Positions 2,425 to 62,618 are shown, counted from the stretch's first letter. The stretch is 64,000 nucleotides of DNA from a virus (IMGVR_UViG_3300032116_000031:72215-136214), one strand, 5' to 3'. The notes: generated by a model not told the origin, from the letters alone. Numbers and translations are program-made.

Positions 2425-3600
2425 TTATCCGTCACAAGACAAGCAAGATAGATCAGTTGCTTTGGCTGCTATATCTCCTCTTAATACTGATTCTGTTCTC
2501 ATGTAATAAAGAGTTTTTACACCTTGCCTCCAAGCTTCTAGGTGGACGGCGTTAATGAATTTTGGATCCGCTTGTGCAGGAAATGCTAAATTCAATGACA
2601 CCGCTTGATCTATATATTGTTGTCTTACTCCAGCTTGTTTAACTAAGTCCAATTGATTAATTTCCTTGAAAGTTTTAAACACATCTTTAACTGTATATGC
2701 TTTTGTTTCAAAATCCTCCTTAGAAATTTCAGAAACCTTTGTTAATTTGCCATCGAGATAACACCATTCATCTAAGAAATCTAATCCCTGAACTGAACCA
2801 GCATCTTGTAATATTTGGTCCCAAACTTGCTTAGTGTTATAACCAATATGATCCAAAACCTTTTCTAATTCATTGTTCTTTCTAATAAACGTTCCTTTTA
2901 AGGATTGTTCGGTAAACAAATTAGAAGCCCACGGTTCAATTCCAGCACTAACGTTTCCGCTTAGCTTAGAATTAGAAACTGTTGGTGCAATAGCTCTAAG
3001 ATGGGTATTTCTATAACCACTCTCTTTACACCATAATGGTTCTCCATATTCTGTTGCTAAATCTCTACTTGCCTTTTCTGATTCAATTTTTAATTGGGAG
3101 AATATTTTACGGGTTTCAAATTGTGCCCTCAATCCCTCAAAAGGTAATCCTCTTTGTTGGAGGTAGGTATGCCAACCTAAAGTATTATGTATAACGTATT
3201 TAACACCATTATTTGAACTAGTAAAATAATTATGATGTTCATCTACTGTTAAATCCGAATATTCAATATCAATATTTTCAGGTTGCCAAATTTCAACAAT
3301 GGTGTTTAAATTATTATCTTGACTAACCATTACATTACCAACACTTAATTCATCTGCTCTAACATAATCAAGTGAACCATCTTTCATTATAGTTAAGGTT
3401 GGATGCCATAATGAAGTATAAATAATACTACCACAATCTAATTTAATTGCTATCTGATCTTTAACTTCAACAATGGGTTTATGTGTTTCTAATATTTCCC
3501 TATAACATTTTTTTCTTTTATTTATGTCATAAGATAACACAAAATCACCGCATTTAGCATTTTCAATTGCTATTTCTTTTTTATTTATTTTTATATTCAT
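2425..3600 (-). CDS. nrdA: Ribonucleotide reductase alpha, C-terminal half, fused behind a split-intein C fragment
   Basis: aa 1-139 carry intein blocks B (TSLWHP), F (YSDLTVDEHHNYF) and G (VIHN), followed by TLGWHTYLQ, AIAPT, LYYMR and the C-terminal CLSCDG of class Ia NrdA. Confidence 0.92.
   Translation of the reverse strand: MNIKINKKEIAIENAKCGDFVLSYDINKRKKCYREILETHKPIVEVKDQIAIKLDCGSIIYTSLWHPTLTIMKDGSLDYVRADELSVGNVMVSQDNNLNTIVEIWQPENIDIEYSDLTVDEHHNYFTSSNNGVKYVIHNTLGWHTYLQQRGLPFEGLRAQFETRKIFSQLKIESEKASRDLATEYGEPLWCKESGYRNTHLRAIAPTVSNSKLSGNVSAGIEPWASNLFTEQSLKGTFIRKNNELEKVLDHIGYNTKQVWDQILQDAGSVQGLDFLDEWCYLDGKLTKVSEISKEDFETKAYTVKDVFKTFKEINQLDLVKQAGVRQQYIDQAVSLNLAFPAQADPKFINAVHLEAWRQGVKTLYYMRTESVLRGDIAAKATDLSCLSCDG
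3184..3600 (-). other. Split intein C fragment (139 aa), ending HN with Thr as +1 residue
   Basis: Hint-domain motifs; junction CAT AAT | ACT at 3184/3183. Confidence 0.9.
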
Positions 3601-3602
3601 AA

Positions 3603-4637
3603 TTAATTTTTATTTTTTTTTGAGAAATTACCTTTTAACCATCCTTTTTCTAAAAAGGAATTTAATTCTTCTTTTTCTATAAATTTTATTTCAACGCCAT
3701 TATTAATACAAATTCTTCCTTTATTACTCGTTTTTTTAGATAAACACCCTAATACCCACCCTTTTTCTAAATACTCTTTTGTATTTTCTTTAGGTATGTA
3801 TTTGTTTACTAATCCATTATTTATACCAATAGATCCTTTTTCAATGGTCCCTTTTATTGTATCTGTTGACCAACCGTTGTTTAAATGATCTTTTATTTCT
3901 GCTTCATCTATCAACTTTGTTTTACCATCTTTTATTACTTTCTTTTTATTTTTTATAGATTTTTCTTTCAATTTTTTCTTTAATTGATTATTAAAACCTA
4001 TAAACCATCCATCCATTAAATAATACTCTAAGTCTTTTTTATCAATATATTTATGTTTTCCATCTTTATTAATACAGATATGACCGACTTCTATTGAACC
4101 TTTATTTGTTTTTTTACGGATAGTTATACCTTTAAACCATCCTTCAGGTAACTCCGCGTCTAATTTAATAAATTTGTTATTAATACCATTTGTAATACAA
4201 ACAGTATTGTTAGTAGTGCCTTTAGTTTTTACCCATCCTTTTTTTTCTAAAAGTTGTTTTAAGTGTTTTGGAAAAAATCTTGTTTTACCAGTTTTAGGGT
4301 TAACTAATTTAATCATGTCTTTTGCATTAAAATGTTTATTACCAAATTGATTATAACAAACATTTACACATCTTTTCCTACCATATCTTTCGAAAGCTTT
4401 TTTTATTAAATTTGATTCATAATCATTAATAATCTTTCTATCAAAAGATAAATCGAATGAATTTATTATAATCCTATTCCATTTACAATTATCGAATTCC
4501 ATTTCATAAGAGAGGTATTTAGAAGAACTTACATATTTATCATCTAAATACCCCTTATGTGAACCAATATATATAAACGGTAAATCAGTATTATAATATC
4601 TATCAGATGAATACCATATATAAATAAATTGCTTCAT
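3603..4637 (-). CDS. Free-standing GIY-YIG (Seg-like) homing endonuclease
   Basis: N-terminal FIYIW...YIGSH...Y.SSS motif; repeated INNG..NK.I...L..GW..G modules; lies between the nrdA halves. Confidence 0.85.
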   Translation of the reverse strand: MKQFIYIWYSSDRYYNTDLPFIYIGSHKGYLDDKYVSSSKYLSYEMEFDNCKWNRIIINSFDLSFDRKIINDYESNLIKKAFERYGRKRCVNVCYNQFGNKHFNAKDMIKLVNPKTGKTRFFPKHLKQLLEKKGWVKTKGTTNNTVCITNGINNKFIKLDAELPEGWFKGITIRKKTNKGSIEVGHICINKDGKHKYIDKKDLEYYLMDGWFIGFNNQLKKKLKEKSIKNKKKVIKDGKTKLIDEAEIKDHLNNGWSTDTIKGTIEKGSIGINNGLVNKYIPKENTKEYLEKGWVLGCLSKKTSNKGRICINNGVEIKFIEKEELNSFLEKGWLKGNFSKKNKN

Positions 4638-4648
4638 TTCAACTTGAA

Positions 4649-5812
4649 TTAATCTATTTCTATTGTTTTTATCAGTGTAGATACTTTTATTTTTTCTCCG
4701 TTTAATTCAATGAAATCTTCAAGATTATAATTAATTCCATCAATTTCAACTGAATCTATCACTTCAATTTTAGATCCTTTTGATACACAACCTAGACCCA
4801 AAGCGCGGCCCTTCTCGGCTGATCTAACAGCGTTCTCAAAGCCTTTCATATTCTTTGCTTTCTGAATAAACTCTTCCAGTACGCCGTCCAAGAACCAAGT
4901 AGCTGTATAAATTAAATCAGTGTCTTTCCATTCATCATATTTTGCCAAATTAAGAGAACTTAGGCAACACACAAAAGAATGTTGTTCATCGGTATGTAAA
5001 GCAATCTCTGAACAAATATTTGTCATGTGTACCTTCAACCCATTCTTTTTATACATTTCAGGATTACTTTTATTAACATTACCCTTAAACATAATATAAG
5101 GCTCACCTGTTGCTTTTCTCTTTTGTAACAATTTACCCCACTTCCTTCTTGCCTCTACGTCACCTTCTTCTAATTTACGCATAAAGCTGTCGCTAATGAC
5201 GGCGCATTGATGTAAATTCAAAGACTGTCTATTAACATCTCCTTTTGGTTCTCTAATTTCCAACCATTCCTCAAAATCTGGGTGATCAATTTTGATGTTA
5301 ACAGAAGCAGCACCTCTTCTAACAGCACCTTGATTCGTAGCTAAAATAGTAGAATCATAAATCTTACAAAATGGTACAACGCCATCTGAAGTGCCATTGT
5401 TGGTAATTTTAGCACCAGCAGGTCTAATCATATTGATACCAATACCTACACCCCCACCATGTTTAGCTAGCATCATTAATTCAAGGTTCTTTGAACCTAT
5501 CTCGTAGATACTATCGCCTACATCAATACCAAAACAACTGATAGGTAAACCTCTATCTGTACCAGTGTTAGCTAATACAGGTGTCGCTAAGTTTAACCAA
5601 CCTCTCCAAATATAATCGAAGAATTTAGTTGCTAAATGTGGTTTGTTCAAACGTTTGGCAACAGTTGTAGATACGCGCCAATAAGCGTCTTTTGGTTTTT
5701 CACCTTGTAGAAGGTATTCTTTAGAAATGGTTTTTACATAGACTTCGGTATTACCCCATTCAGGGAAGTCAACTCCAACTTCCCAACCGAACTCTGCTCC
5801 ATGATTTATCAT
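4649..5812 (-). CDS. nrdA: Ribonucleotide reductase alpha, N-terminal half, fused to a split-intein N fragment
   Basis: ATPVLAN, PISCF, GGGVG, RRGA, NICSEI, VCCLSSLNL, RALGLG motifs. Confidence 0.93.
   Translation of the reverse strand: MINHGAEFGWEVGVDFPEWGNTEVYVKTISKEYLLQGEKPKDAYWRVSTTVAKRLNKPHLATKFFDYIWRGWLNLATPVLANTGTDRGLPISCFGIDVGDSIYEIGSKNLELMMLAKHGGGVGIGINMIRPAGAKITNNGTSDGVVPFCKIYDSTILATNQGAVRRGAASVNIKIDHPDFEEWLEIREPKGDVNRQSLNLHQCAVISDSFMRKLEEGDVEARRKWGKLLQKRKATGEPYIMFKGNVNKSNPEMYKKNGLKVHMTNICSEIALHTDEQHSFVCCLSSLNLAKYDEWKDTDLIYTATWFLDGVLEEFIQKAKNMKGFENAVRSAEKGRALGLGCVSKGSKIEVIDSVEIDGINYNLEDFIELNGEKIKVSTLIKTIEID
4652..4789 (-). other. Split intein N fragment (46 aa)
   Basis: NrdA homology stops at GRALGLG and continues CVSKGSKIEV (intein block A), then a stop codon. 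Confidence 0.85.
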
Positions 5813-5875
5813 ATTAAAATATATTTTTAGTAAAAATAATTAGTACAGTTAAAAATTAACGATGAAAAAAATTTA

Positions 5876-6883: not shown

Positions 6884-8269
6884 TTAATTTTTATTTTTTT
6901 TGTTAGCTTCTAATGAACTTGTTATATTAAAGTCTTCTATTTTAATTTTGACCTTAGCATTATTAAATATGCAATTTTCAAATTTCAATCGACCCTGACC
7001 TAAGCGATTTTTCCAAAAGTTTACATTGGCTAATGCTGATATTTCTTGCTCTTCATCTTTACCAACGGTGATCAATACGTGAGCTATCTTTAAAAGGTCA
7101 ACGGAGCCACCTAACATCGTCGGTAAGACATCTTTCATACCATGTGAATCCTTTTTACCTTGAATCAAAACCCACGCAGCACAATTGAATTTTTCCTCGC
7201 TTATTGAATGTTCTATTTGTCTTAAAACCTCTGGACCAGCCATAAAATCTCTTTCACCATAATCCTTTTCACTTTTAATACAATCTAAATAGTCAATAAT
7301 AATCAAATCCAATTTATGCCCTAATACTTTCTCGATGTAAAACATTGTTTGTTCAATATCACTCCATTTTGTATTAATAGCATCAAACTTTTTAACAATT
7401 AATCTACCACCTGCTTTCTCCCCTTTCTTCAGATATTTTTTGCATTCTAATTCTACAAGTTCTTTGTTTTTATTTTTTCTAGTTTCATTGATTTCCAATC
7501 CAGTCCAATGTGCTTGGAATTTAGAAATCAATTGATCTTGAGCACCTTCAAAATAAACGTACAATACTGTCTTACCTTGATTGAATGCTGCACTAGAAGT
7601 AACAACAGAGAAAGTAGTCTTACCAACGCCGTAACCAGCCCCTAGAACGCATAAATCGCCTCTTGAAGGCCCACCACTTAAAGCACTATCGAAAGACACT
7701 CCTAGGCCAGTTGAGATAGGAATTCGGTTCATATCATCAACTGTTTTAAATGTTTCGCTATCGAAGATTAACGGTCTTTTTTCTAAGTCATTAATCTCAA
7801 TAGATTTTCTCACTTTATCAACAGCATCTTCAAAGGATTTGATTTTATTCTCCTTCAATCCTTTTCTAATAGAATCTACTGATGTGAAGAAGTTTTGTTG
7901 TTGAACAAAGTTTTTAGCGTTGTTCCTGATATGATCTACGTTTTCAATAACTACGTTTTCAATATCATCTAAGAACTGAAAAAAGATTTCTTTATCTTCT
8001 TTACTCTGTGAGGAGTATATTTCCCTAATCGTATCGTAGAAAGGAATACTACGGTATTTTTCGTAATATTCCTTCACGATAGATAAAAGAAACTTTGAAG
8101 ATGGAAGAAAGAAGTGATTGCTTTTTAGAATAGGTAAAATTGTAAGACCAAAATCAACATCTCTGTAAATTTCCTTTCCTTTAAGGATTCGCCGTCCAAT
8201 CACCTGATTCCAAAATTTAATCTCAAACCGTTCACCAAAAAATGAAAGGTTTTCGTTCATTGTATCCAT
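6884..8269 (-). CDS. Replicative DnaB/gp41-like helicase
   Basis: Walker A GAGYGVGKTT, Walker B IIIDYLD, KNR.G motif. Confidence 0.85.
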   Translation of the reverse strand: MDTMNENLSFFGERFEIKFWNQVIGRRILKGKEIYRDVDFGLTILPILKSNHFFLPSSKFLLSIVKEYYEKYRSIPFYDTIREIYSSQSKEDKEIFFQFLDDIENVVIENVDHIRNNAKNFVQQQNFFTSVDSIRKGLKENKIKSFEDAVDKVRKSIEINDLEKRPLIFDSETFKTVDDMNRIPISTGLGVSFDSALSGGPSRGDLCVLGAGYGVGKTTFSVVTSSAAFNQGKTVLYVYFEGAQDQLISKFQAHWTGLEINETRKNKNKELVELECKKYLKKGEKAGGRLIVKKFDAINTKWSDIEQTMFYIEKVLGHKLDLIIIDYLDCIKSEKDYGERDFMAGPEVLRQIEHSISEEKFNCAAWVLIQGKKDSHGMKDVLPTMLGGSVDLLKIAHVLITVGKDEEQEISALANVNFWKNRLGQGRLKFENCIFNNAKVKIKIEDFNITSSLEANKKNKN

Positions 8270-8316: not shown

Positions 8317-8877
8317 TTAGAGTTGATAACTATTTACACAGAAAGTGTTTTTAACGCCAGTGAAAGGAGTGAAAAATCTGTTTGTGTAATAATTCAAAGA
8401 TAACAAGTCTTTCAACAAACTTCTGATACCTTTAAAATTAGGACCATCTTTCCAAATAGGGAGAATAGATAGTTGAGGAACAGCGTAGAAATCATTAGCA
8501 TTAATTTCTTGCTGATAGATTACCCTTACTTCTTTTTCATCTGTTAGTTTACCTTGATTTCTCACTGATGCTGAATGGTCAACTAATTTAAAGATGTAAC
8601 GTGAATTTGGGTTTTGGTGGGTGGACGGCGAAATTCCGTTCTCATAATTTTTGTAAAGATAATCCTCCGTAATACCCCTCATATAATCATGGAACAAGCC
8701 AGTAATCTGTTGAAAGGTGTGAACAATCTCTACTGAATTTTCAACCGCTAAATCAGGGTTTCCAAATTCTTTTGGTGTGGCAAAGAAATTCAACATAGAC
8801 ATCTCTTGTGCTGTTGAACCATCGTAGTAAATCAAGTGAAAAGTAAATTTTGTAGTAAACTCTTGATTTTCTTTCAT
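8317..8877 (-). CDS. Hypothetical protein
   Basis: 186 aa ORF inside the replication operon. Confidence 0.6.
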   Translation of the reverse strand: MKENQEFTTKFTFHLIYYDGSTAQEMSMLNFFATPKEFGNPDLAVENSVEIVHTFQQITGLFHDYMRGITEDYLYKNYENGISPSTHQNPNSRYIFKLVDHSASVRNQGKLTDEKEVRVIYQQEINANDFYAVPQLSILPIWKDGPNFKGIRSLLKDLLSLNYYTNRFFTPFTGVKNTFCVNSYQL

Positions 8878-8880: not shown

Positions 8881-9888
8881 TCAAATTTTGTTTGTTAAAA
8901 AATATGGTTGAATAAAAAAGTTTAAATCTCCATCGAAATCTAAATCTGTTACTATTTGTTTGTGTATCTCTGTGCCTTTAATCTTATTTATAAAAGCCTT
9001 CTTATCAAAATTCAAGAACTTAATGTTTGCTATTTCGTCCTTGCAATCTTGTGTCACAAAGGTACTACTTTTTAGATTAATTAGTGACTCTGTGAGCAAA
9101 AATTTTTCATCTTTTTCTAAAAATTCTATTAAGGTTCCTAAACGCTTCCCTTTCTTATTTTTCTCCCTTTGTTTATAACAGTATTCAAGTAAACTTGTTC
9201 TGTCATATTCTCGTCTAACAAACATAGGGATTTCTTTAACAATCGACTTTTCAGAGAATCCATTGGCACCTATAATATTATCAGATTCATCCCCCATAAT
9301 GACCTTTCTTAGTAATATATTCTTGGGATTGTAATCAAAATAATATTCAAAATTTTCAGAATTAATCAATAAGTTTTTTGGATACAAGAAGTCGCCAGTC
9401 TTTATCCTATTCATATAATAAACATATACTGTCTTATCAACTAATTGAAAATAATCATGATCGTTTGATAATATCAATATATTTTCCTTATCCTTATTTT
9501 GCCTGACATATTCTGCAATGCAATCATCTGTTTCAACGAATTCATGTTGATATGAAACTATACCCAATAGCTCCATTAATTCTTTTAAAACATTTATTTG
9601 ATTGTAATAAGGATCAATACCGTTAAAAAACCTCTTACGTTTTTCTTTGTATTGTGGATACAATTCCCTTCTTAACTTTCCACTTTCAGGGCCATCCCAA
9701 AATAAAACCGTTTTATTAATTTGATATGTATGATTATTTACATTCTCATTTAATATTCCTCTCAACTTTTTTAAAAATCCCCAAACAGCGTGAATATTTT
9801 GTTTTTGGAGGGCGTAAGATTTTACGCCCTCGAAAACAATCTTGTATAAGTTAGTTGCGTCTACAACCAGAGTAGCTCTATTCTTCAT
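8881..9888 (-). CDS. 5'-3' exonuclease / flap endonuclease (T4 RNase H-like)
   Basis: VVDA, FWDG, R..LYPQYK..R, ETDD.IA, SNDHDYFQL, GDESDNIIG motifs. Confidence 0.9.
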   Translation of the reverse strand: MKNRATLVVDATNLYKIVFEGVKSYALQKQNIHAVWGFLKKLRGILNENVNNHTYQINKTVLFWDGPESGKLRRELYPQYKEKRKRFFNGIDPYYNQINVLKELMELLGIVSYQHEFVETDDCIAEYVRQNKDKENILILSNDHDYFQLVDKTVYVYYMNRIKTGDFLYPKNLLINSENFEYYFDYNPKNILLRKVIMGDESDNIIGANGFSEKSIVKEIPMFVRREYDRTSLLEYCYKQREKNKKGKRLGTLIEFLEKDEKFLLTESLINLKSSTFVTQDCKDEIANIKFLNFDKKAFINKIKGTEIHKQIVTDLDFDGDLNFFIQPYFLTNKI

Positions 9889-41013: not shown

Positions 41014-41721
41014 ATGCAAACATACTATAAATTAAATGATTTTTTAGAAGGGATGCGGAAGGATGTGGACGGCGAATTCTATTATGAAATAAAAAACGAC
41101 GGAATTTATAAAATTGAATTCTCCCATGCAGGTAAAAAAGGAGGTAGCGTCTTTGAATATAAATTCTATCCAGAATTAAATAACAAATTTAAAGAAGTAG
41201 AAGCCTTAGAAATTTACGATATTGATAAAGGGACGGAATTATTTATGGATTGGTTTTCAGAAAATAACCAAAATATAGAAATTATGACCAAAGAAGAGGT
41301 GAAAAACTTTTTGGATAAGAATGTTATCGAGGAATCAAATTCTTGCTGGAAGAATCCAAAACAATTAGCAAAAGCAATTAAAAACGGCTTGGAAGTACCT
41401 AATTGTATCCCTGATGAAAAGTACGCCCTGAAAGAATCGAATTACTTTATCGGTAATAAGAAAAGAGAATTGAATAAAAAATATGAGAAGATAATGGATT
41501 GGTTGGAAGAAGTGGTCGAAAGTGGGGATAAAGATTACGCTGAAAAGATAATGAAGATAATTGAAAAGTGGAAGAAAAGCTATGAAGACAAAATAAGAAA
41601 TGCTAAAAGCTATTTGAGAGAAAATAAAGATATTAAAATCCTTGACTTAAAAGAATATATAACAAAAAATGAAACTGCTAAAAACAAGATTAGCAGTTTC
41701 ATTAAAAATTACGGCAATTAA
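41014..41721 (+). CDS. Hypothetical protein
   Basis: 235 aa; CW...K.G..VPNC.P motif; TATTTAT upstream. Confidence 0.6.
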   Translation: MQTYYKLNDFLEGMRKDVDGEFYYEIKNDGIYKIEFSHAGKKGGSVFEYKFYPELNNKFKEVEALEIYDIDKGTELFMDWFSENNQNIEIMTKEEVKNFLDKNVIEESNSCWKNPKQLAKAIKNGLEVPNCIPDEKYALKESNYFIGNKKRELNKKYEKIMDWLEEVVESGDKDYAEKIMKIIEKWKKSYEDKIRNAKSYLRENKDIKILDLKEYITKNETAKNKISSFIKNYGN

Positions 41722-47273: not shown

Positions 47274-48086
47274 TTAAAGCAAAAATTCTTTGTAAGTATT
47301 TTTCTCTTTATGTCCGTTCACCACTTGGAAATTAGGTGTTTGTGGATAACCTGCCTTAGAAACTTGTTCGTGGATTCTTTTAAACATCTGATAGTAATTC
47401 AAAGCTTTATTAGAATCATTAGCTAAAACTTTTTCTAGGCTAGCTGTGAAGAGGCCCATAGGTCTTTTATCTATAAAAGATTTTAGGTCATAAGAAACTT
47501 GGAATTCAGTAGAAGAAGAATAAGCTATAATATTACAAGCTAAATCACTTTCTTCAATTAGATTTGTTGGTAATTCCAATTCCTTTTTTAGACCTGCAAC
47601 TTTAAGAATATCAGAGAAATCCAGTGATCTAACTTGTGCATCATCATTTTCGCCGTCCAAATCAATCGACTTAAAATTATCTCTTGCATGACAGCAATCT
47701 GATACCCATACAATATTAACACCTTCTTTAAACTTCTTTAAAAATTCCTTGGTTTCATAATCCCAAACTATTCTATCATATAGGCATAAAGCAGTTCTTC
47801 TTTTTTCTTTACCTCCACCTTCATAGTCTTCGTAAGTACCATGACAAGAGATATTAAAAAAGAAAGTGTCACCAGCTTCCAATTCTTCTGAAAGTTTGTT
47901 TAAAAAATCGACATATACTTGGTAAGTAGCTTTCTCGGATAAGAAAACATTAGTTTCAAATCCTTTTTCTTTTGCTAAGCTTTCCATAAAAATAATGTCG
48001 TTTTCACAACCTCTCAAATCATTACCTGAACCGTAATAATTTGGATCAAATTTGTTAATACCAAAATGCAATGATACTTTTTTCAT
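47274..48086 (-). CDS. Caspase-like (peptidase C14, metacaspase/orthocaspase) protease
   Basis: GIN......L.GCEND, SCHG (His), SDCCH (Cys), G.FT..L, QTP motifs. Confidence 0.85.
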   Translation of the reverse strand: MKKVSLHFGINKFDPNYYGSGNDLRGCENDIIFMESLAKEKGFETNVFLSEKATYQVYVDFLNKLSEELEAGDTFFFNISCHGTYEDYEGGGKEKRRTALCLYDRIVWDYETKEFLKKFKEGVNIVWVSDCCHARDNFKSIDLDGENDDAQVRSLDFSDILKVAGLKKELELPTNLIEESDLACNIIAYSSSTEFQVSYDLKSFIDKRPMGLFTASLEKVLANDSNKALNYYQMFKRIHEQVSKAGYPQTPNFQVVNGHKEKNTYKEFLL

Positions 48087-48121: not shown

Positions 48122-49213
48122 TTAATAGAGTAAATTTTCGGCTAATTGAATAATTAAATCTGTAACTTGGTCTACTTTATTGGAATCTTTATCACAGGCG
48201 TTATAAATCATATCGCGTTCATTTTTAGCGATATTTTTATAATTAACCGTTGCACTTTTAGGTTTTGCGATTTCGCCGTCCACCTCCCAATACTGATCCA
48301 TAACAAAATCAGAAACCAATAAAAGCCCATCATTATTATAAACAAAACTTTCCACGAACTTATTTAATAAATTCTTATAAGTACCAGATTTAGAATAATA
48401 ATTCTCAATGAAATAATCAAGATCATCTCTATCAGATTCAGCTATTTTAACATAACCAAAAATACCTTTCAGTAAATGTGTATCGTACCTATCATCATCT
48501 TGGAGCAATATTGGAATTATTTTTCTGTTATAAACTAAAAAATCAGAATCTCCAACCATCATAACAAAAACGTCATTCTTGTTATTAAAATCCAAATCAA
48601 CTGATGCCTTCTCTCCCTTTTTAGGCTCTTCTTTCAATTGAGCTAAAATCTCATTTACCTTCTCTTTTGAAATAACCCCCTTTCTAACTAAATCACTGTA
48701 TAGACCCTTAGCTAAAAAGTCTTTTACAGTACTTAGATAATAATCCTTGGTTAATTTATACCCAGCAGGAGAAAAGCCACCAGAATCACTATCAGGATTC
48801 CTCTTCAAATATTCTCTCAAAACAATCTTACCGAATCCCCAACCCTTATATTCATTTACAGTAGTAACCAACACTGATCCTAAAAAATCCATAGCAACTG
48901 ATACCCTCACATCATCTTCATCAAAGATACCAATATTGCCTTTATCAGACATTTTAACTTTAAAGTCAGCATTGTTGACTTTAATATTATTTATCAGCTT
49001 TGGATATGCCTTGTATCCAATATTAGGATTTTCTTTATAACTTAATTCTTCAGCGTAGGAAGAGTTATAAAGTTCTGGGGAATGTGACTTACCGCTTTTA
49101 TTAATATATTTATCACGATATTCCTCCCAAGTCATTAAAGCAGGTTCAACAGATTTGTTTTCAAATTCGTTAGTTGCTTCATTGATTGTTGCTTCACTGA
49201 TAATAATTTTCAT
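48122..49213 (-). CDS. Hypothetical protein with a GNAT acetyltransferase-like motif
   Basis: VNEYKGWGFGK resembles acetyl-CoA-binding motif A, followed by FSPAG. Confidence 0.5.
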   Translation of the reverse strand: MKIIISEATINEATNEFENKSVEPALMTWEEYRDKYINKSGKSHSPELYNSSYAEELSYKENPNIGYKAYPKLINNIKVNNADFKVKMSDKGNIGIFDEDDVRVSVAMDFLGSVLVTTVNEYKGWGFGKIVLREYLKRNPDSDSGGFSPAGYKLTKDYYLSTVKDFLAKGLYSDLVRKGVISKEKVNEILAQLKEEPKKGEKASVDLDFNNKNDVFVMMVGDSDFLVYNRKIIPILLQDDDRYDTHLLKGIFGYVKIAESDRDDLDYFIENYYSKSGTYKNLLNKFVESFVYNNDGLLLVSDFVMDQYWEVDGEIAKPKSATVNYKNIAKNERDMIYNACDKDSNKVDQVTDLIIQLAENLLY

Positions 49214-49215: not shown

Positions 49216-50379
49216 TTATTTAATTAATTTTAAAAAGTTTTCTGTTTCTAATTGGTTGATTTTCTCACCTAATTCTTTACCTTTGACGTTATATTCTTTA
49301 GCAACATCATCTCCACTTAAAGATAGTTGAAATTTTATAAAAGCGTCGGAGAAGCTTTCATTAAATCCTAAAATTTCATTTAAGAAATATCTCAAATCAT
49401 TATCAGAAATAATCACCTTAGAGATTTTTCTTTTTAAGATTGGGGCATTTTCAGCACTTAAATTCTTCAAGGAAATTAAAGTAGATATATTATAGGCTTC
49501 TTTACTTGTGTATTTATAATTGTTTAATTTAGAGCTTACCAATTCAGGACTGTTGTTTAACAATAAGGTAGCTATTATTATTTCAGGGTTTTTATATTCA
49601 ATAAAATCGTAATTGACTTTCAAATCAGGGAATATTTGAGGGAATAAATCCAAGTCTTTTATCATGTTTAAATAAAACACTGTGGATTTAGCTTTACTTA
49701 AGCCCTTTAAAAATTCATCTCTAATTCTTTCAAATGATACTCCTTTTAGAGAGTTGTTGGATTGGACGGCGGATTTAATATCTGGGTTCAAATCAGAATT
49801 AGTTATTGCCGCAAATCTTATAGCTCTCAATATTCTAATTCTATCTTCATTGAATCTATCCTCTGCATTGCCCACAGTTCTTATCTGACCGCTTTTTATG
49901 TCATCAACGCCTCCAACTAAGTCAATTACTTTATCCTTCGTTATATCGTAATATAGAGCGTTTATAGTTAAATCACGTCTTTTAACGTCTGAATCAATAT
50001 TCGCAAATTTAATAGATTCTGGTCTTCTACCATCTTTATATTCACCATCTTCTCTGAAGGTAGCTATTTCATATTCTTCACCGTTTATGATAACAGAAAT
50101 TACGCCAAAAGATTTGCCCTTTGGAATTATGGTATCATAACCTTCTTTTTCCAATATTTCAATTACTCTATCTGGGTTAGCATCAGTAGCTAAATCGTAA
50201 TCTTTTGGTTCTTTACCGTAAAATAAGTCCCTGACAGCTCCACCCACAATGAATAAATCGTGCCCATTTCTATTAAATTGTTTTGCTAAAACTTTAATGT
50301 CACTTGGAACATTCATTTTTAAGTTTTCAGATTCTTCGTTTAGTCTTCTAATTATAGACTCATTTATTAAAATTTTCAT
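49216..50379 (-). CDS. cca: CCA-adding tRNA nucleotidyltransferase / poly(A) polymerase family
   Basis: VGGAVRD, DYDLAT, RRDLTINAL, EDRIRILRAIRF, ERI..E motifs. Confidence 0.88.
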   Translation of the reverse strand: MKILINESIIRRLNEESENLKMNVPSDIKVLAKQFNRNGHDLFIVGGAVRDLFYGKEPKDYDLATDANPDRVIEILEKEGYDTIIPKGKSFGVISVIINGEEYEIATFREDGEYKDGRRPESIKFANIDSDVKRRDLTINALYYDITKDKVIDLVGGVDDIKSGQIRTVGNAEDRFNEDRIRILRAIRFAAITNSDLNPDIKSAVQSNNSLKGVSFERIRDEFLKGLSKAKSTVFYLNMIKDLDLFPQIFPDLKVNYDFIEYKNPEIIIATLLLNNSPELVSSKLNNYKYTSKEAYNISTLISLKNLSAENAPILKRKISKVIISDNDLRYFLNEILGFNESFSDAFIKFQLSLSGDDVAKEYNVKGKELGEKINQLETENFLKLIK

Positions 50380-51287: not shown

Positions 51288-53160
51288 ATTCGTATGTTTT
51301 TTCAAATTTCCAATTGCCACAATCCCAAACCCTATCAAAACCCAAATAAATCATCATTTCTTTTTCCGTCATTGAGCTATCCAATTCAGGATATTCTTTA
51401 AGGATTTTATGTTTTTGGTACCGCATTCTATTGAATAGCTTTGCACCGTATTTTTTATTATAATAATGGTACACTGGAGGTTGCTGTTCAATTAGTTTGA
51501 AACCTAGTTTTGTATATAGGTTATTTTCTCCATCTGGTGTCCATCTTATATCTGCGAATGTTTTTATTTTGGACGGCGAAAAATCTCGCTCAAATTTTCT
51601 TAACATTTTTGATGCCAAACCCCGAATATGATAATTGTAGTTTGTGGCATATCTGTTCAAATCATATACACCTGCTTCACTTGTCCTTTTAAAAGTCATA
51701 ACCCCCACCATTTCGCCGTCCAACACCGCACCATACCGTATAGGAGAAGTATCACCCCCCTGTATATGATATTTCTCTAAAAAATCAAAACTCTCATTGT
51801 GAGAAATCTCAATTATTTCACACGACCTAGCGTGCCCCTTCTTACCTAAATTTAAACCACAAGCATTTAATATCTTATTCCTTAATAAATCTGGTTTCTC
51901 AAGATACTCATTCTCAAATATATGATACAATTTAATTCCATCTTCCTTGGCTTGATTTGTCTTATCTAAATGATAATATCTATCCTTACCACCATTATTC
52001 AAACTGCCATTAACCAAACCCTCACAATGATAAAGCAAACCGTTAGCCTCAAAACCAATGTTGCCATAAACAACATCCACCTCCTTATTATTAGATAATT
52101 TTTTCTTGGAAATCTTCTCACCCGTAACCTCCGTTATCACTTCTCCTACCCATTGCTCGAACTTAGAAAAAGTACTTGCACAACTAGGACAACCAGACTT
52201 TAATGTCATATGTTCATTCTGCGACTTCTTGAAAACCCCATGTTTAGGACATATAATATCCATCTTCGTTTTACTATTTACATTCTCCGTACATAAAGAA
52301 TAATCATATTTATCCTTATGTATTTTTCGAGATTTTTCGATAAATTCATTTAAACAAAATCTACTAGCCTCTAATGAACATTCAGGACAACCACTACCTC
52401 CAACATGATTATCAAATCTTTGATGAAACCATCCGTGTTTATTGCATTTTATTTTAATTTTACTGCCAATATTAGTATATTCTGTAAAATCATATTCGTA
52501 TTTATCAGAATGAACAGCTATAACTTTCAATAAAAGTTCCTCATCAGTAAAACGTTGGAGTTCAGCTCCTTCTATTTTAGCACATACAGGGCATTTTTGC
52601 CCCTGTAAATGAGCTGAAACTACCTGTGAAAATTCACCATGTGTAGGGCATATTATCGTTATTTTATCAGTGTTAATTTTAAAAGAAGCTTTACTATAAT
52701 CATAACCCCTATCTTTATGAATAATTTTACATTTCTCTAAAAATGCGGTTAATTTTTCTTCAGGAGTACCACCATACTTACAAACAGGACATTTATACCC
52801 CTTTTTATGAACAGCAGGGATAGTTTGAAATTCACCGTGTTTTCTACAAATAATAGTTACAGGTGTTTTGTCATTTATATATTCAACCTTAGAATAATCG
52901 AATTCATCACCGTGAATAGTTTTTGCCCTTTCTATAAATTCATTGGTTTTAGATAAATCAACAACAGGGATTTTCTTACACTCCCTGCATTTAGCACCCC
53001 TCAAATGAACGCTTGCTATAACCTCAAAATCACCATGTTTTGAACAAGTAATAATAACAGGTTTTTTGGTGTTAATAAAATTAACTTTTTCGTAGGAATA
53101 TTCATCCCCATGAACCTTTCGCGCCATTTCAATAAATTCTTCTTGCGTAGTTTTTTTCAT
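51286..53160 (-). CDS. Putative homing endonuclease: five zinc-binding repeats, PD-(D/E)xK-like nuclease, C-terminal GNAT/Mom-like domain
   Basis: 5x F......H...Y.Y...IC..HG.F......H..G..C..C; EVD...GFE.NG..YH; start at ATG 53160 below a TACCTTTG box (53176-53183). Confidence 0.7.
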   Translation of the reverse strand: MKKTTQEEFIEMARKVHGDEYSYEKVNFINTKKPVIITCSKHGDFEVIASVHLRGAKCRECKKIPVVDLSKTNEFIERAKTIHGDEFDYSKVEYINDKTPVTIICRKHGEFQTIPAVHKKGYKCPVCKYGGTPEEKLTAFLEKCKIIHKDRGYDYSKASFKINTDKITIICPTHGEFSQVVSAHLQGQKCPVCAKIEGAELQRFTDEELLLKVIAVHSDKYEYDFTEYTNIGSKIKIKCNKHGWFHQRFDNHVGGSGCPECSLEASRFCLNEFIEKSRKIHKDKYDYSLCTENVNSKTKMDIICPKHGVFKKSQNEHMTLKSGCPSCASTFSKFEQWVGEVITEVTGEKISKKKLSNNKEVDVVYGNIGFEANGLLYHCEGLVNGSLNNGGKDRYYHLDKTNQAKEDGIKLYHIFENEYLEKPDLLRNKILNACGLNLGKKGHARSCEIIEISHNESFDFLEKYHIQGGDTSPIRYGAVLDGEMVGVMTFKRTSEAGVYDLNRYATNYNYHIRGLASKMLRKFERDFSPSKIKTFADIRWTPDGENNLYTKLGFKLIEQQPPVYHYYNKKYGAKLFNRMRYQKHKILKEYPELDSSMTEKEMMIYLGFDRVWDCGNWKFEKTYE

Positions 53161-57080: not shown

Positions 57081-57440
57081 ATTTATATTTTTAAAAACCT
57101 TGAATTTAGGGTAATTACTTATTATATTTTTTAGTATATCTGGATATTCTTTTAAACTATTTATTGTGTTATCTTTTATTAGTGAAAGTTCAACTGAAAG
57201 GTATGCGGTGGTGGACGGCGAATCTCTTATGTCAACATCAATAAAATATTCGTAATTGTCCTTAAAATTTTGCTTTAATTCAAAAACCTTTTTCCTTATA
57301 GCCTTTGTAAAATTGCAAATTTCCCTTTTGTAATCAACAGCGCTCAATTGTCCCTGTAATTCAACCCAACATTGTAATTCAACTTTCGTAATACCGTTTT
57401 TCTTAATAATCTTGCTCTGAAAATTATCATCTATTGTCAT
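57066..57440 (-). CDS. Hypothetical protein
   Basis: 124 aa; TATATTTG box at 57461-57468. Confidence 0.6.
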   Translation of the reverse strand: MTIDDNFQSKIIKKNGITKVELQCWVELQGQLSAVDYKREICNFTKAIRKKVFELKQNFKDNYEYFIDVDIRDSPSTTAYLSVELSLIKDNTINSLKEYPDILKNIISNYPKFKVFKNINKKKR

Positions 57441-61716: not shown

Positions 61717-61812
61717 ATTTTTATACTTTGCTATAAATATAGGTTAAAAAAGAAATGTTCGGCAAACACAAGGTTCACCGAACATTATTATCATTATGGT
61801 TTTAAAATCTTT

Positions 61813-62172
61813 TTATGCTCCTGCAACGATAGTTGAAGTGAATGTGATTGAAGGATTCAATGTTGACAATTCAGCAATGTAAAGGTTGTGAAGCTCTGTA
61901 AGAATATCTTTTCCTGTAAATTCTACATCAGCATAATTTTTAGGCATAACAGCAAAACCCACAAAATTATATGTTTCAGGGTGTTGAACTGCATCTGTTC
62001 CTGTTTCTGGATCAGCAGGTGTTTCGTGTGCAGGGTTAATTGTTACAGGCTGCAACCAAGAATTTAATGCGCCTTTTGATGGGGTTGAGAAATAAATGAT
62101 AAAGCCTTCAACCTTGTTTGATGTGATTTGATCTTCACCTAGTACGATGTTATTTTTATCGAATTTAATCAT
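61813..62172 (-). CDS. Hypothetical protein
   Basis: 119 aa; TATTTAT upstream and a terminator-like hairpin at about 61746-61785. Confidence 0.6.
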   Translation of the reverse strand: MIKFDKNNIVLGEDQITSNKVEGFIIYFSTPSKGALNSWLQPVTINPAHETPADPETGTDAVQHPETYNFVGFAVMPKNYADVEFTGKDILTELHNLYIAELSTLNPSITFTSTIVAGA

Positions 62173-62240
62173 GGTTTATTTTTTTTATTATATAAATATA
62201 TCTGTTTTTTGTTTTTTGGAGGGTTGGACGGCGAAAATGA

Positions 62241-62618
62241 TTAAATTGTTGGATTATTTAACATATATTCGCTTTCATATAATTCGTCCATACCAAAAAT
62301 GGTGTGCTTTTTTGTGTCAGGCTTTGGCCATACAATATAAGGGGCATAATTGGGATTCGGTTCATCTTCCCATAGAATGTCGACGGCGAATTTATCTGAT
62401 AAAACAGCTTCTTGGATGATTGTACCATCTTCACCAATAATTGCTGGTGTCAACTCCAAATGACCAAGTGGAATTACTGCGACCTTATTGTACGATGGAA
62501 TTGGTGAGGGGATTTCCACGCCGTTTTCATCAAATGTAGGCAGTGGGGGTGGCACAATTCCGCCGTCCACCCCTACCATCTCATCATAACTATTAAATTC
62601 GTATTTTAAATACCTCAT
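62241..62618 (-). CDS. Hypothetical protein, probably tail-fibre associated
   Basis: 125 aa, downstream of the fibre-like gene. Confidence 0.55.
   Translation of the reverse strand: MRYLKYEFNSYDEMVGVDGGIVPPPLPTFDENGVEIPSPIPSYNKVAVIPLGHLELTPAIIGEDGTIIQEAVLSDKFAVDILWEDEPNPNYAPYIVWPKPDTKKHTIFGMDELYESEYMLNNPTI

What the first reader, a model, noticed from the sequence alone, without database searches (positions are those of the whole stretch)
2542..62570. Dispersed GC-rich motif KTGGACGGCG(RAWW) written into coding sequence in all frames
Seen: 26 exact copies by manual count, 13 per strand, about one per 2.5 kb, plus one-mismatch copies at 14737, 19143, 25468, 27770, 31723, 55809, 61323 and 62379. 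A simple base-composition estimate at 30% GC gives about 0.01 expected copies. Most copies continue with RAWW. All but one (62224) are inside genes and are read in different frames: VDGE/LDGE, IGRRI/VGRRN, SPS/PPS, SAVQ/NAVH, and WTA and GRP in near-matches. Several force GC-rich codons (CGG CGA, TCG CCG) in an AT-rich genome, so selection appears to act on the DNA and not the protein. Established: this is how DNA uptake sequences, Chi sites and chromosome-organising sites (matS, SlmA/Noc sites) behave; the Neisseria uptake sequence GCCGTCTGAA shares the GCCGTC core. Inference: this is a genome-wide recognition code for a phage or host protein, for example self-marking against nucleases, recombination hot spots, packaging or ejection, or genome organisation. 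I know of no described function for this motif.
Basis: partly seen in the sequence, partly recalled or inferred. Interest (0 to 1): 0.92.

Follow-up and report, generated by a model that had tools for sequence, protein, structure and literature searches.

The report
Genome-wide strand-specific DNA word in phage
A group of uncultured T4-like phages keeps one exact nine-letter DNA word, with a lopsided flank, about every 1-2 kb on both strands and even inside essential genes, so it is a real signal read on the DNA by a reader that is still unknown.

Summary
KTGGACGGCG occurs 26 times in the window, 13 per strand, against 0.01 expected. The whole 136-kb record holds 67 copies of TGGACGGCG. Shuffling synonymous codons gives 0.59 copies against 61 in coding sequence.

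The word is under selection. In a relative 78.6% identical in DNA, 27 of 30 sites are intact, against 14.9% of other 9-mers. Five further related contigs searched whole are also rich in it (G002, G415-G418). A 158-kb and a 184-kb sister-lineage record and two cultured relatives are not.

The full signal is polar: a G/T-rich, C-poor tract of about 20 nt, then the invariant 9-mer, then AAAW. Close copies on opposite strands almost always face the same way, at 14 loci against 1.

None of 401 sampled Bacteroidota genomes carries it densely, and the Neisseria uptake-sequence link is not supported.

My best guess, at 0.27, is start or loading sites for a phage replication enzyme. Chi-like, nick-site and DNA-binding readings remain open.

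The scan flagged this motif in other windows of this genome, and similar words in crAss-like phages.

The parts
2542..2551 (+). motif copy GTGGACGGCG; antisense to its gene, where the gene strand reads N-A-V-H
   Evidence: Not kept in G001 or L074, with 4 mismatches each.
4882..4891 (-). motif copy TTGGACGGCG; sense, L-D-G-V, in an nrdA fragment
   Evidence: Intact in G001 and L074.
8190..8199 (-). motif copy; sense, frame I-G-R-R, in the DnaB-like helicase gene
   Evidence: Intact in G416 and L074.
8621..8630 (+). motif copy; antisense, S-P-S-T
   Evidence: Intact in L074, absent in G416.
17151..17160 (+). motif copy; antisense, S-P-S-K, in the 1688-aa gene
   Evidence: No aligned relative.
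22461..22470 (+). motif copy; antisense, N-A-V-Q
24568..24577 (-). motif copy; sense, V-D-G-E
   Evidence: Intact in G415, G416, L038 and L034.
27554..27563 (-). motif copy; sense, V-D-G-V, in the tail sheath gene
   Evidence: Absent from 5 aligned relatives, with 3-5 mismatches, so specific to this lineage.
30960..30969 (-). motif copy; sense, L-D-G-E
   Evidence: Absent in L312.
31523..31532 (+). motif copy; antisense, S-P-S-N
   Evidence: Intact in G415 and G416.
31893..31902 (-). motif copy; sense, V-D-G-E
   Evidence: Intact in G415 and G416.
32267..32276 (+). motif copy; antisense, S-P-S-N
   Evidence: Intact in G415 and G416.
36389..36398 (+). motif copy; sense, V-D-G-E, inside the candidate primase-helicase gene itself
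37117..37126 (-). motif copy; antisense, P-P-S-N, in the UvrD/Dda-like helicase gene
   Evidence: Intact in G415 and G416.
37562..37571 (-). motif copy; antisense, S-A-V-Q
   Evidence: Absent in G415 and G416.
41065..41074 (+). motif copy; sense, V-D-G-E
43066..43075 (+). motif copy; antisense, S-P-S-T, in the SNF2-type helicase gene
   Evidence: Intact in G415, absent in L305.
43531..43540 (-). motif copy; sense, V-G-R-R, in the SNF2-type helicase gene
   Evidence: Intact in G415 and L305.
47651..47660 (-). motif copy; sense, L-D-G-E
   Evidence: Absent in G415 and L305.
48274..48283 (-). motif copy; sense, V-D-G-E
49762..49771 (+). motif copy; antisense, S-A-V-Q, in the CCA-adding enzyme gene
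51569..51578 (+). motif copy; antisense, S-P-S-K; left member of an outward-facing pair, 144 bp from 51714
   Evidence: Intact in G415.
51714..51723 (-). motif copy; sense, L-D-G-E; right member of the same pair
   Evidence: Intact in G415.
57211..57220 (+). motif copy; antisense, S-P-S-T
   Evidence: Intact in L005 by tblastx mapping.
62224..62233 (+). the only intergenic copy in the window, just past the stop of the gene at 62241-62618 and upstream of a T4-late-promoter-like stretch
   Evidence: Intact in L002.
62561..62570 (-). motif copy; sense, V-D-G-G
32759..36862 (+). candidate reader only, with no demonstrated link to the motif: a 1367-aa protein with a BT4734-like N-terminal domain, an SF2 helicase core, and a C-terminal third whose model shows two helix-helix-hairpin units
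   Evidence: Pfam PF08800 at 6.3e-11, plus DEAD and ResIII hits below cutoff. The model has mean pLDDT 69.4. Only weak fold matches were found, best E 0.05, mostly to tandem winged-helix proteins. Homologues in motif-free phages argue against a simple link.
9806..9814 (+). one-mismatch near copy TGGAGGGCG; one of 10 in the window, the others at 14737, 19144, 25469, 27770, 31723, 55719, 55809, 61323 and 62380
   Evidence: There are 17 such copies in the whole record against 67 exact ones. I judge that number to be about chance level, without a computed expectation, so they need not be functional.

Best explanation
Shown: the word is a cis-acting DNA signal kept by selection in one narrow clade of uncultured T4-like myoviruses. 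Their host is probably a member of the Bacteroidota.

The full signal is polar and about 30 nt long. A G/T-rich, C-poor tract lies on the 5' side, followed by the invariant TGGACGGCG, then AAAW. It sits on both strands inside genes of every class, and sites persist at the same gene positions while the surrounding DNA diverges.

Inferred, and my commitment (confidence 0.27 for this mechanism; I put the generic claim of a selected, trans-read DNA signal at about 0.95): each copy is a place where a phage-encoded replication enzyme starts work on one strand, either making a primer or loading a helicase.
- The GC-rich 9-mer gives specific recognition, and possibly a stable primer-template hybrid in 31% GC DNA.
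- The C-poor G/T tract 5' of it would be the template copied next.
- Close copies on opposite strands point outward like small bidirectional starts, often flanking an AT-rich spacer.

The candidate reader is the 1367-aa primase-like/helicase protein at 32759-36862. That link is not shown.
For: DNA-level selection:
- Codon shuffles give 0.59 copies against 61 observed.
- In G001, 27 of 30 sites are intact, against 14.9% of all other 9-mers and 8.6% of GC-rich 9-mers (binomial P about 1e-19).
- In G002, 7 of 8 are intact at 70.4% identity. In G416, 14 of 19 are intact at 69.6% identity.
- Flank identity equals the background, 0.777 against 0.782.

Strand polarity:
- The 20 nt on the 5' side have G 31% and C 7-8% whether the word is sense or antisense to the gene. 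The coding-strand background is G 18% and C 14%.
- This was replicated on 101 sites from other clade contigs, with G 31.8% and C 9.0% against 17.5% each.
- Position -2 is G in 43 of 60 sites, and positions +1 to +3 are A-rich.

Directional logic:
- Among opposite-strand neighbours 250 bp or less apart in 17 clade contigs, 16 rows (14 distinct loci) have the arrangement word...reverse-complement, and 2 rows (1 locus) have the opposite (two-sided binomial 0.001).
- Eight of the 14 are 99-240 bp apart and are not hairpins.

Spacing in this genome:
- Spacing is regular per strand: CV 0.56 on + (P 0.0006) and 0.67 on - (P 0.023), against about 0.95 for random placement.
- Strands alternate more than expected, with 36 runs against 28.4 (P 0.027).

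Precedents:
- G/T-rich flanks raise T7 primase binding up to 10-fold and lengthen primers (PMC6136900, abstract).
- About 26 strong priming sites were picked out of the T7 genome (PMC12839067, abstract).

Available enzyme:
- No DnaG/Toprim-type primase family appeared in the Pfam lists I saw, though one list showed only 25 of 28 families.
- The only primase-like domain I saw is PF08800 in the 1367-aa helicase fusion.
Against: - Phages with homologues of that protein at 30-35% identity have no such word and no other dominant dispersed word. This covers 9 loci of 11.7-23.8 kb and a 184-kb record.
- A 158-kb sister-lineage record also has none. Related replication machinery therefore works without it.
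- Known primases read 3 bases plus context, not an exact 9-mer.
- The sharpness of the word, 67 exact against 17 one-mismatch copies, fits a nuclease or a base-specific binder at least as well.
- Regular per-strand spacing did not replicate in G415 (CV 0.87 and 1.00) and is weak in G416 (0.72 with P 0.047; 0.75 with P 0.14).
- The C-terminal winged-helix reading rests on fold matches no better than E 0.05.
- Earlier scan notes on crAss-like phages priced a similar priming reading at 7-9 in 100 after later checks.
- No physical data exist: all public runs are held as contigs only.
Confidence: 0.27

Rival explanations
1. Chi-like signal. The word is read on one strand by a processive helicase-nuclease, phage-encoded or host. 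It switches the enzyme from degradation to recombinase loading, so phage DNA is spared or recombined while DNA without the word is destroyed.
For: - Density is 1 per 2.0 kb, like the Chi-rich lambdoid phage LLS at 1 per 1.86 kb (PMC12315714, passages).
- The word is exact and G-rich, with a G/T-rich tract on its 5' side. That is the side kept as the 3' tail in the E. coli Chi model (recalled).
- RecA prefers TGG-repeat DNA that resembles Chi (PMC3763553, abstract start in listing).
- The phage has RecA/UvsX-like, Mre11/Rad50-like (Metallophos plus AAA_23) and RecD/Dda-like genes.
- Both orientations are interleaved, as a permuted genome with ends anywhere would need.
- A lineage-specific add-on system would explain why sister clades lack the word.
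Against: - None of 401 sampled Bacteroidota genomes is dense in the word, so a host Chi is unlikely among those sampled.
- No RecB, RecC or AddAB family appeared in the Pfam lists I saw.
- The 14-to-1 orientation rule for close pairs is not predicted by this model.
- There is no step in sequence identity across sites, so no sign of recombination junctions (P at least 0.48).
- Known phage Chi sets are strongly one-oriented: 20 of 23 in LLS and 32 of 32 in MD8.
Confidence: 0.2
2. Site-specific nick motif. A phage nickase cuts the strand that carries the word, as in T5, phiKMV-like and tf/LUZ24-like phages, whose nicks have no known function.
For: - This is the closest published pattern. Phage tf has a 9-nt non-palindromic TACTRTGMC, 14 copies in 46 kb, similar positions in four related phages, and few single-substitution variants (PMC3517423, passages).
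- WACTRTGAC is enriched in a cluster of 61 phages: Rembedalsseter and 60 relatives (PMC11780129, passages).
- The same features are seen here.
- The genome encodes proteins that hit nuclease-annotated or nuclease-like families: PHROG HNH endonuclease, a treble-clef zinc finger, and T5orf172/MUG113 and UVR domains.
Against: - All known nick motifs lie on one strand only. Here the split is 13/13 in the window, and 29/26 across the record beyond its first 10 kb.
- At seven loci, copies on opposite strands lie 24-66 bp apart. Nicking both would nearly break the duplex.
- Contig ends are not enriched near the word: 4 of 34 ends within 100 bp against 2.0 expected (P 0.14).
Confidence: 0.15
3. Double-strand recognition site for a phage DNA-binding protein or modifying enzyme. 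Possible roles are self-marking, genome compaction or packaging, or a motif-directed base modification.
For: - The core is sharp and non-palindromic, as expected for a monomeric base-specific binder or an enzyme.
- Copies are spread over the whole record and in all gene classes.
- The genome carries nucleotide-pool genes that could go with modified DNA: dATP/dGTP diphosphohydrolase N-domain, HD, dUTPase, NUDIX, and a GMP-reductase/IMPDH-like gene. It also carries two glycosyltransferase families.
Against: - A modification target need not be enriched or conserved.
- The one-sided G/T-rich flank of about 20 nt and the pair-orientation rule point to a directional process that reads one strand.
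- No methyltransferase or transglycosylase family appeared in the lists I saw.
Confidence: 0.15
4. Host-directed uptake or host-factor site (DUS/USS-like), copied from the host genome.
For: The pattern resembles uptake sequences (properties recalled): an exact core with AT-rich extension, both strands, all frames, inverted pairs forming stable hairpins (-26 to -31 kcal/mol), and conserved positions.
Against: - None of 401 sampled Bacteroidota genomes is dense in the word.
- The one genome with a high ratio to its control, G067 with 32 against 2, has 1 copy per 120 kb and lacks the flank consensus.
- Only a hexamer is shared with the Neisseria DUS.
- A phage has no evident use for uptake.
Confidence: 0.03
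5. By-product with no signal function: an assembly artefact, codon or peptide bias, or a small mobile repeat.
For: Seven of the 67 copies lie in paralogous repeats of the giant genes at 0.5-9 kb, all reading W-T-A-Q, and owe their number to duplication.
Against: - Codon shuffles give 0.59 against 61.
- Independent contigs and 14 studies hold the sequence.
- Flanks outside about 30 nt are unrelated.
- Sites are orthologous, not transposed.
- The word is read in five frames.
Confidence: 0.01

Closest known systems
Nick-associated motifs of tf/LUZ24-like Pseudomonas phages (TACTRTGMC / WACTRTGAC), and also T5 and phiKMV-like phages
   Same: Both are 9-nt non-palindromic exact words, one per 2-3 kb, inside and outside genes.
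   Different: Those motifs lie on one strand only and have mapped nicks. Here the word is on both strands in equal numbers, with close opposite-strand pairs, a long polar flank, a different phage type (T4-like myovirus, likely Bacteroidota host), and no physical evidence of nicks.
Chi sites in Chi-rich lambdoid phages (LLS, MD8)
   Same: Both are exact G-rich words that are the most over-represented oligomer of the phage, at about 1 per 2 kb (PMC12315714; here), in G/T-rich context.
   Different: Chi is the host's own signal and is strongly one-oriented in those phages. Here no sampled host-phylum genome is enriched and orientation is balanced.
DNA uptake sequences (Neisseria DUS, Pasteurellaceae USS); properties recalled, not checked in a paper here
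   Same: The pattern-level likeness is strong: exact core plus AT-rich extension, both strands, written into proteins in several frames, inverted pairs forming hairpins between genes, and orthologous conservation.
   Different: Uptake sequences belong to competent bacteria and are read by a pilus protein. This word belongs to a phage clade, its likely host phylum shows no enrichment, and only GCCGTC is shared with the DUS.
Strong priming sites of the T7 primase-helicase
   Same: Both are strand-specific with G/T-rich flanks. T7 has a limited set of strong sites per genome, about 26 (PMC6136900; PMC12839067).
   Different: The T7 core is 3-5 nt and degenerate. Here 9 nt are invariant, and the phage's primase-like domain is a different one (PF08800, which I recall as archaeo-eukaryotic type).
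Strand-alternating GC-rich words of crAss-like phages
   Same: Both are dispersed GC-rich words on both strands inside genes, kept at the same gene positions, lineage-specific, with an unknown reader. Both occur in phages of Bacteroidota.
   Different: The word and the phage family are different. I did not test those genomes.

Membership tests
Nick-associated phage motifs (T5, phiKMV-like, tf/LUZ24-like) | A physical single-strand break at the motif in virion DNA | not testable with these tools
   All 24 listed runs are held as contigs, and contigs cannot show ends.
Nick-associated phage motifs (T5, phiKMV-like, tf/LUZ24-like) | All copies on one DNA strand | tested here: not met
   13 + and 13 - in the window. 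29 + and 26 - in the record beyond 10 kb.
Nick-associated phage motifs (T5, phiKMV-like, tf/LUZ24-like) | Short exact non-palindromic word, enriched, at conserved positions in related phages | tested here: met
   180-fold over an order-3 Markov expectation. 27 of 30 sites kept in G001. 17 one-mismatch copies.
Chi sites | The same word is over-represented in the host chromosome | tested here: not met
   Across 401 Bacteroidota genomes, the highest density is about 73 per Mb with similar control counts, against 492 per Mb in the phage. The host itself is unknown, so this covers only the genomes sampled.
Chi sites | Orientation bias relative to the DNA end or replication direction | tested here: inconclusive
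   There is no overall strand bias. The physical ends of the genome are unknown, and a permuted genome would not show a bias.
Chi sites | Recognition by a RecBCD or AddAB type enzyme | not tested
   No such family appeared in the Pfam lists seen. One list showed only 25 of 28 families, and the record may be incomplete.
DNA uptake sequences (DUS/USS) | About 1 copy per kb in the genome of a naturally competent bacterium | tested here: not met
   G067, the best ratio to its control, has 32 copies in 3.9 Mb without the flank consensus.
DNA uptake sequences (DUS/USS) | Shared core with a known dialect (the CTG core of the Neisseriaceae DUS, recalled) | tested here: not met
   The reverse complement reads CGCCGTCCA. 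Only GCCGTC is shared.
Primase recognition sites (T7/DnaG type) | Trinucleotide core with a cryptic 3' base, and primers that start there | not testable with these tools
   No primer-end data exist. The invariant core is 9 nt. Only the G/T-rich flank matches (PMC6136900).
Phage RNA polymerase promoters | Lie between genes and point the same way as the genes | tested here: not met
   61 of 67 copies are inside coding sequence. Without the 7 paralogous copies, 30 are sense and 24 antisense.
Small mobile repeats (MITE-like or REP-like) | Copies share a longer unit with ends, and sit at non-orthologous places | tested here: not met
   Similarity ends within about 30 nt. Sites are orthologous between genomes.
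Known RNA families | A match to an Rfam model | tested here: not met
   No match at gathering score in the window. ARAGORN found no tRNA gene in the window or in the whole record.

The most novel reading that the evidence does not exclude
The clade hard-wires where work on each DNA strand begins. A sequence-specific initiator, possibly the primase-like/helicase fusion with a winged-helix-like tail, recognises the 9-mer and starts synthesis or unwinding toward the G/T-rich side. The genome is then tiled by dozens of outward-facing start sites, some paired across an AT-rich spacer like miniature bidirectional origins. No replicon is known to specify its strand starts genome-wide by an exact 9-letter word.
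Probability: 0.2. Interest if true: 0.9.

Novelty: new variant of a known kind. Interest (0 to 1): 0.7.

Why it matters
Genome-wide polar words such as Chi, KOPS, uptake sequences and phage nick motifs each exposed a DNA-handling machine. The phage nick motifs remain unexplained after 50 years.

This case is unusually clean:
- an invariant 9-mer that is 180-fold enriched;
- 90% of sites retained at 79% DNA identity;
- a one-sided flank and a 14-to-1 orientation rule.

It occurs in T4-like phages, whose replication and recombination are otherwise textbook. That makes the question of what reads it directly testable with oligonucleotides and a handful of expressed proteins.

Earlier notes of this scan report analogous words in crAss-like phages. 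Together they hint that strand-specific genome codes may be common in Bacteroidota phages. The word is also a simple marker for recognising members of this clade in metagenomes.

Tried and rejected
**Promoter reading.** Rejected. Copies lie inside genes and are as often antisense as sense.

**RNA-level signal.** Rejected for the same reason. Rfam found nothing.

**TnpB guide or target idea.** The IS605-type TnpB at 43774-44997 ends 235 nt from the copy at 43531. The intervening DNA is a promoter-like gap and the start of a conserved helicase gene, so the copy is not the element's flank. Dropped.

**Primer-binding-site idea.** The reverse complement ends in CCA, like a tRNA 3' end, and the phage has a CCA-adding enzyme. 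But the record has no tRNA gene. Many Bacteroidota genomes have 0-2 copies, so no universal tRNA gene carries the word. Kept only as a remote thought.

**Host search through TnpB relatives.** The best hit is 42% identical, in unrelated phyla. Not informative.

**Contig ends at the word** (a sign of breaks or coverage loss). Not significant.

**Recombination junctions at the word.** None seen.

**Dialects in sister lineages.**
- G411 (158 kb) has none.
- G419 (184 kb) has top k-mers that turned out to be 69-bp tandem repeats; I read them as leucine-rich repeats.
- Early 8-mer hints in loci L008-L022 did not hold up in whole records, with 0-2 copies.

**Literal search of papers for the word.** 647 papers hold it. 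The 20 listed looked from their titles like primer or construct contexts, and none was opened.

**Other literature searches**. I found no description of this motif in them.

**Sequencing runs.**
- No RNA holder was listed, so nothing can be said on expression.

**Structure of the C-terminal third of the 1367-aa protein.** Mean pLDDT is 69.4 and the best fold match has E 0.05, so it is only a hint of tandem winged helices.

**Sequence match to solved structures for that protein.** None.

**Limits on what I could see.** Supplementary files of the cited papers were not opened. The tables of Chi counts (PMC12315714) and of motif positions (PMC11780129) may refine the comparisons.

Full report
**What the window is**

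The window is the right-hand 64 kb of a single 136,214-bp virus record with 31.5% G+C and no N. PHROG and Pfam hits identify a distant T4-like myovirus. It has a tail sheath, a gp20-type portal, a major head protein and a large terminase. It also has a family B DNA polymerase, a DnaB-like helicase, a 5'-3' exonuclease and a RecA-like recombinase, ribonucleotide reductase and a prohead protease, and gp25.

The nearest cultured phages by portal are Microcystis phage Mel-JY01 (38%) and Flavobacterium phage immuto (36%).

Three features point to the host and the transcription style:
- Only 1 of 124 called genes has a Shine-Dalgarno-like core.
- TAnnTTTG occurs upstream of genes.
- TATAAATA is 11-fold denser between genes.

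From recalled knowledge of Bacteroidota promoters and T4 late promoters, this points to a Bacteroidota host and T4-style late transcription.

CheckV estimates for related fragments are 22% for 71.7 kb and 48% for 158 kb. One word-rich contig has no similarity to this record. Both suggest that the record is incomplete.

**The observation**

KTGGACGGCG occurs 26 times in the window, 13 per strand, against 0.01 expected.

The whole record has 67 copies of TGGACGGCG. Every GGACGGCG is preceded by T. The word is the only strongly over-represented oligomer, 180-fold over an order-3 Markov expectation.

There are only 17 one-mismatch copies. I judge that to be about the chance level, though no expectation was computed for them.

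Seven copies sit in paralogous repeats of three giant genes at 0.5-9 kb. I left these out of the flank and spacing tests.

**Coding context**

With 124 ORF-based gene calls covering 96.5% of the record, 61 of 67 copies lie in coding sequence:

| Frame relative to the gene | Reads | Copies |
|---|---|---|
| sense nTG GAC GGC G | L/V-D-G-x | 28 |
| sense TGG ACG GCG | W-T-A (paralogous copies) | 7 |
| sense nnT GGA CGG CGn | G-R-R | 2 |
| antisense nCG CCG TCC A | S/T/P-P-S | 16 |
| antisense nnC GCC GTC CA | A-V-H/Q | 8 |

Shuffling synonymous codons within genes 500 times gave a mean of 0.59 and a maximum of 3.

GAC, GGC, CCG and TCG are rare codons here, at 18%, 13%, 6.5% and 4.8% of their families. 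Even so, 28 of 32 [LV]DG[EVDGA] tetrapeptides use the word.

**Conservation**

A 71.7-kb contig, G001, is collinear with 10-79 kb of the record at 78.6% DNA identity. Of the 30 sites in aligned columns, 27 are intact. The three others differ at 4-7 of 9 positions.

As an empirical control, 14.9% of all other 9-mers and 8.6% of GC-rich 9-mers are fully conserved (P about 1e-19).

Retention in other relatives:
- G002, at 70.4% identity: 7 of 8, or 7 of 9 when gapped columns are counted.
- G416, at 69.6% identity: 14 of 19, or 14 of 20.

Identity in the 150-600 bp beside sites equals the background, so the conservation belongs to the word itself.

Copy number also evolves. Only 14 of 35 aligned G416 sites exist in this record. 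G415 and G416 carry one copy per 1.1-1.35 kb, against one per 2.0 kb here.

Where a site is present in one genome only, the partner often encodes the same L-D-G with AT-rich codons.

**Distribution**

Among 25 portal relatives in IMG/VR, 6 loci with 73-100% portal identity carry the word. None of the 19 others do: 15 loci at 48-51% identity, 3 more distant, and one 4.4-kb near-identical locus.

| Record searched whole | Length | Copies |
|---|---|---|
| G001 | 71.7 kb | 34 |
| G002 | 24 kb | 16 |
| G415 | 44.7 kb | 42 |
| G416 | 66 kb | 49 |
| G417 | 8.3 kb | 10 |
| G418 | 13.6 kb | 12 |
| G411 (sister lineage) | 158 kb | no comparable word (top 9-mer enrichment 15-fold, 8 copies) |
| G419 (sister lineage) | 184 kb | 0 |
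| G420 | 61 kb | 0 |
| Flavobacterium phage immuto | 160 kb | 0 |
| Microcystis phage Mel-JY01 | 190 kb | 3 |

The backward-read control pattern gave 0-1 in these records. The top k-mers of G419 come from 69-bp tandem repeats that I read as leucine-rich repeats.

Public runs from 14 studies hold the stretch, in 20 rows of which two may be the source.

**Host test**

In 401 Bacteroidota genomes drawn evenly from the phylum, the highest counts are 220-255 per 3.0-4.8 Mb, which is at most about 73 per Mb. Control counts there are 116-290. The phage has 492 per Mb.

The genome with the best ratio to its control, G067 with 32 against 2, has its copies scattered at about one per 120 kb. The local G+C is about 43%, and the copies lack the phage's flank consensus.

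The word was therefore not found as a dense host signal in the genomes searched. The true host is unknown.

**Anatomy of the signal**

On 60 non-paralogous sites, the positions next to the core are:
- -2: G in 43.
- -1: G or T in 59.
- +1: A in 45.
- +2: A in 49.
- +3: A in 39.

Further out, the 20 nt on the 5' side are G/T-rich and C-poor:

| Site class | G | T | C |
|---|---|---|---|
| word sense to the gene | 31% | 38% | 7% |
| word antisense to the gene | 31% | 44% | 8% |
| intergenic | 37.5% | 40% | 4% |
| coding-strand background | 18% | 31% | 14% |

The 3' side beyond AAAW is unremarkable.

The same holds for 101 sites from other clade contigs: upstream G is 31.8% and C is 9.0%, against 17.5% each.

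The signal is therefore polar and about 30 nt long. That fits something reading one strand or moving in one direction.

**Arrangement**

In this record beyond 10 kb, spacing is regular on each strand taken alone:
- + strand: CV 0.56, P 0.0006.
- - strand: CV 0.67, P 0.023.
- Random placement gives about 0.95.

Pooled over both strands the CV is 0.80, which is barely regular (P 0.06). Strands also alternate more than expected, with 36 runs against 28.4 (P 0.027).

I ran the per-strand test after reading earlier scan notes on crAss-like phages.

It did not replicate well. G416 gives 0.72 (P 0.047) and 0.75 (P 0.14). G415 gives 0.87 and 1.00. G001 shares most sites with this record and is not independent.

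A stronger regularity concerns close neighbours. Among neighbours on opposite strands 250 bp or less apart in 17 clade contigs:
- 16 rows have the order word-then-reverse-complement. After removing orthologous duplicates by hand, these are 14 loci.
- 2 rows, a single locus, have the opposite order.
- The two-sided binomial is 0.001.

Seven of the 14 are 24-66 bp apart. Six of those lie between genes, where they form stable hairpins. Five were folded, giving -26 to -31 kcal/mol with z of -4.2 to -6.5. They are followed by A-rich sequence and not by a U-run. In contig G417 each hairpin is followed by a TAnnTTTG-type promoter.

The other seven pairs are 99-240 bp apart, too far apart to form such hairpins. 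Same-strand close pairs are also common, at 26 rows.

**Reading**

The generic conclusion is firm: this is a selected, clade-specific, polar DNA signal read in trans. The mechanism is not settled.

I rank initiation sites first, at 0.27. In this reading the word is where a phage replication enzyme primes or loads a helicase. It is the only reading that predicts a fixed polarity for close pairs, which would act as outward-facing starts flanking an AT-rich spacer. It also matches the G/T-rich template flank known for T7 primase (PMC6136900 and PMC12839067, abstracts).

The only primase-like domain I saw is in a 1367-aa helicase fusion. Its C-terminal third models as two helix-helix-hairpin units. 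The fold matches are weak and mostly to tandem winged-helix proteins, with best E 0.05.

Several points count against this reading:
- Homologues of that protein occur in nine word-free loci and in the word-free 184-kb record.
- Known primases do not need nine exact bases.
- The spacing result is not robust.

The remaining readings:
- **Chi-like control of a helicase-nuclease (0.20).** It fits the density, the G-richness and the G/T flank, and it has a phage precedent (PMC12315714). It lacks host enrichment and a recognisable enzyme, and I saw no recombination junctions.
- **Nick sites (0.15).** These are the closest published pattern (PMC3517423; PMC11780129). Those motifs are strictly one-stranded, however, and here opposite-strand copies lie as close as 24 bp.
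- **A duplex binder or modification target (0.15).**
- **A host uptake-type signal (0.03).**
- **A by-product (0.01).**

About 0.19 is left for something I have not thought of.

**Relation to earlier notes of this scan**

Other windows of this genome were flagged for the same word. I confirmed their counts and frames.

Notes on crAss-like phages describe analogous strand-alternating GC-rich words. They name nick motifs and primase sites as the closest known things, and later checks priced their bold readings at 7-9 in 100.

Those are unchecked AI notes. They gave me the two papers on nick words and T7 sites, and the idea of testing each strand separately. They are not independent support.

Noticed in passing
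G000 7876-7960 (L147) and contig L267 at 50-125, 525-595, 4700-4770 and 5935-6015: Between genes, two copies of the word in inverted order form 12-16 bp hairpins (-26 to -31 kcal/mol). They are followed by A-rich sequence, not a U-run. In L267 each is followed by a TAnnTTTG-type promoter, which recalls the promoter-plus-stem-loop cassettes of T4-type phages (recalled).
   Followed up: partly
window 43774-44997 (-): An IS605-family TnpB (HTH_OrfB_IS605, OrfB_IS605 and the Cas12f1-like TNB domain) sits between a GMP-reductase/IMPDH-like gene and the SNF2-type helicase. The best bacterial relatives are only 42% identical. A weaker relative at 33% occurs in G001.
   Followed up: partly
G000 11.9-22 kb and 58-74 kb (set A3), and window 1537-1995 and 45080-46165: A cluster of nucleotide-pool enzymes: dATP/dGTP diphosphohydrolase N-domain, HD domain, dUTPase, NUDIX and a GMP-reductase/IMPDH-like protein. 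Two glycosyltransferase families lie elsewhere (set A1). This may point to non-canonical or modified bases. No PurZ or deazaguanine-pathway family appeared in the lists I saw.
   Followed up: no
window 2428-5812 (-): Ribonucleotide reductase large-subunit barrel domains hit two separate genes, and a HINT domain is present. A 344-aa gene with no Pfam hit lies between them.
   Followed up: partly
window 49219-50379 (-): A CCA-adding enzyme (PolyA_pol head and RNA-binding domains) in a record where ARAGORN finds no tRNA gene.
   Followed up: partly
window 47277-48086 (-) and 38440-39825 (-): A caspase-family domain hit (Peptidase_C14), which I assign by sequence inspection to the 270-aa gene. There is also a 462-aa protein with a repeat-rich C-terminus that I read as leucine-rich repeats. 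Its only NCBIfam row is far below cutoff.
   Followed up: no
window 51289-53160 (-): A 624-aa protein next to the head gene combines treble-clef zinc-finger repeats (DUF723, DUF4379), a GNAT-like acetyltransferase domain below cutoff, and a strong PHROG 'HNH endonuclease' match.
   Followed up: no
window 11011-12018 (-): A 336-aa protein with no family hit ends in an acidic tail, ...DDSELPF, like the C-terminal tails of single-strand DNA-binding proteins (recalled). It lies beside the RecA-like gene.
   Followed up: no
G000 2-11938 (+): Three giant genes of 986, 1620 and 1319 aa share repeated segments that each carry the word in the frame W-T-A-Q. They account for 7 copies that arose by duplication.
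   Followed up: partly
G419 (L338-L347), for example 4.0-7.0 kb, 44-47 kb and 74-75 kb: A word-free relative carries long arrays of 69-bp tandem repeats, which I read as leucine-rich repeats, in several genes on both strands.
   Followed up: partly
contig L267 (G417), 181-8064: An 8.3-kb word-rich contig with no similarity to this record encodes DUF3846, DUF932 and a pentapeptide-repeat protein. It looks like an early, possibly anti-defence, region of a clade member, and it suggests that the 136-kb record is incomplete.
   Followed up: partly
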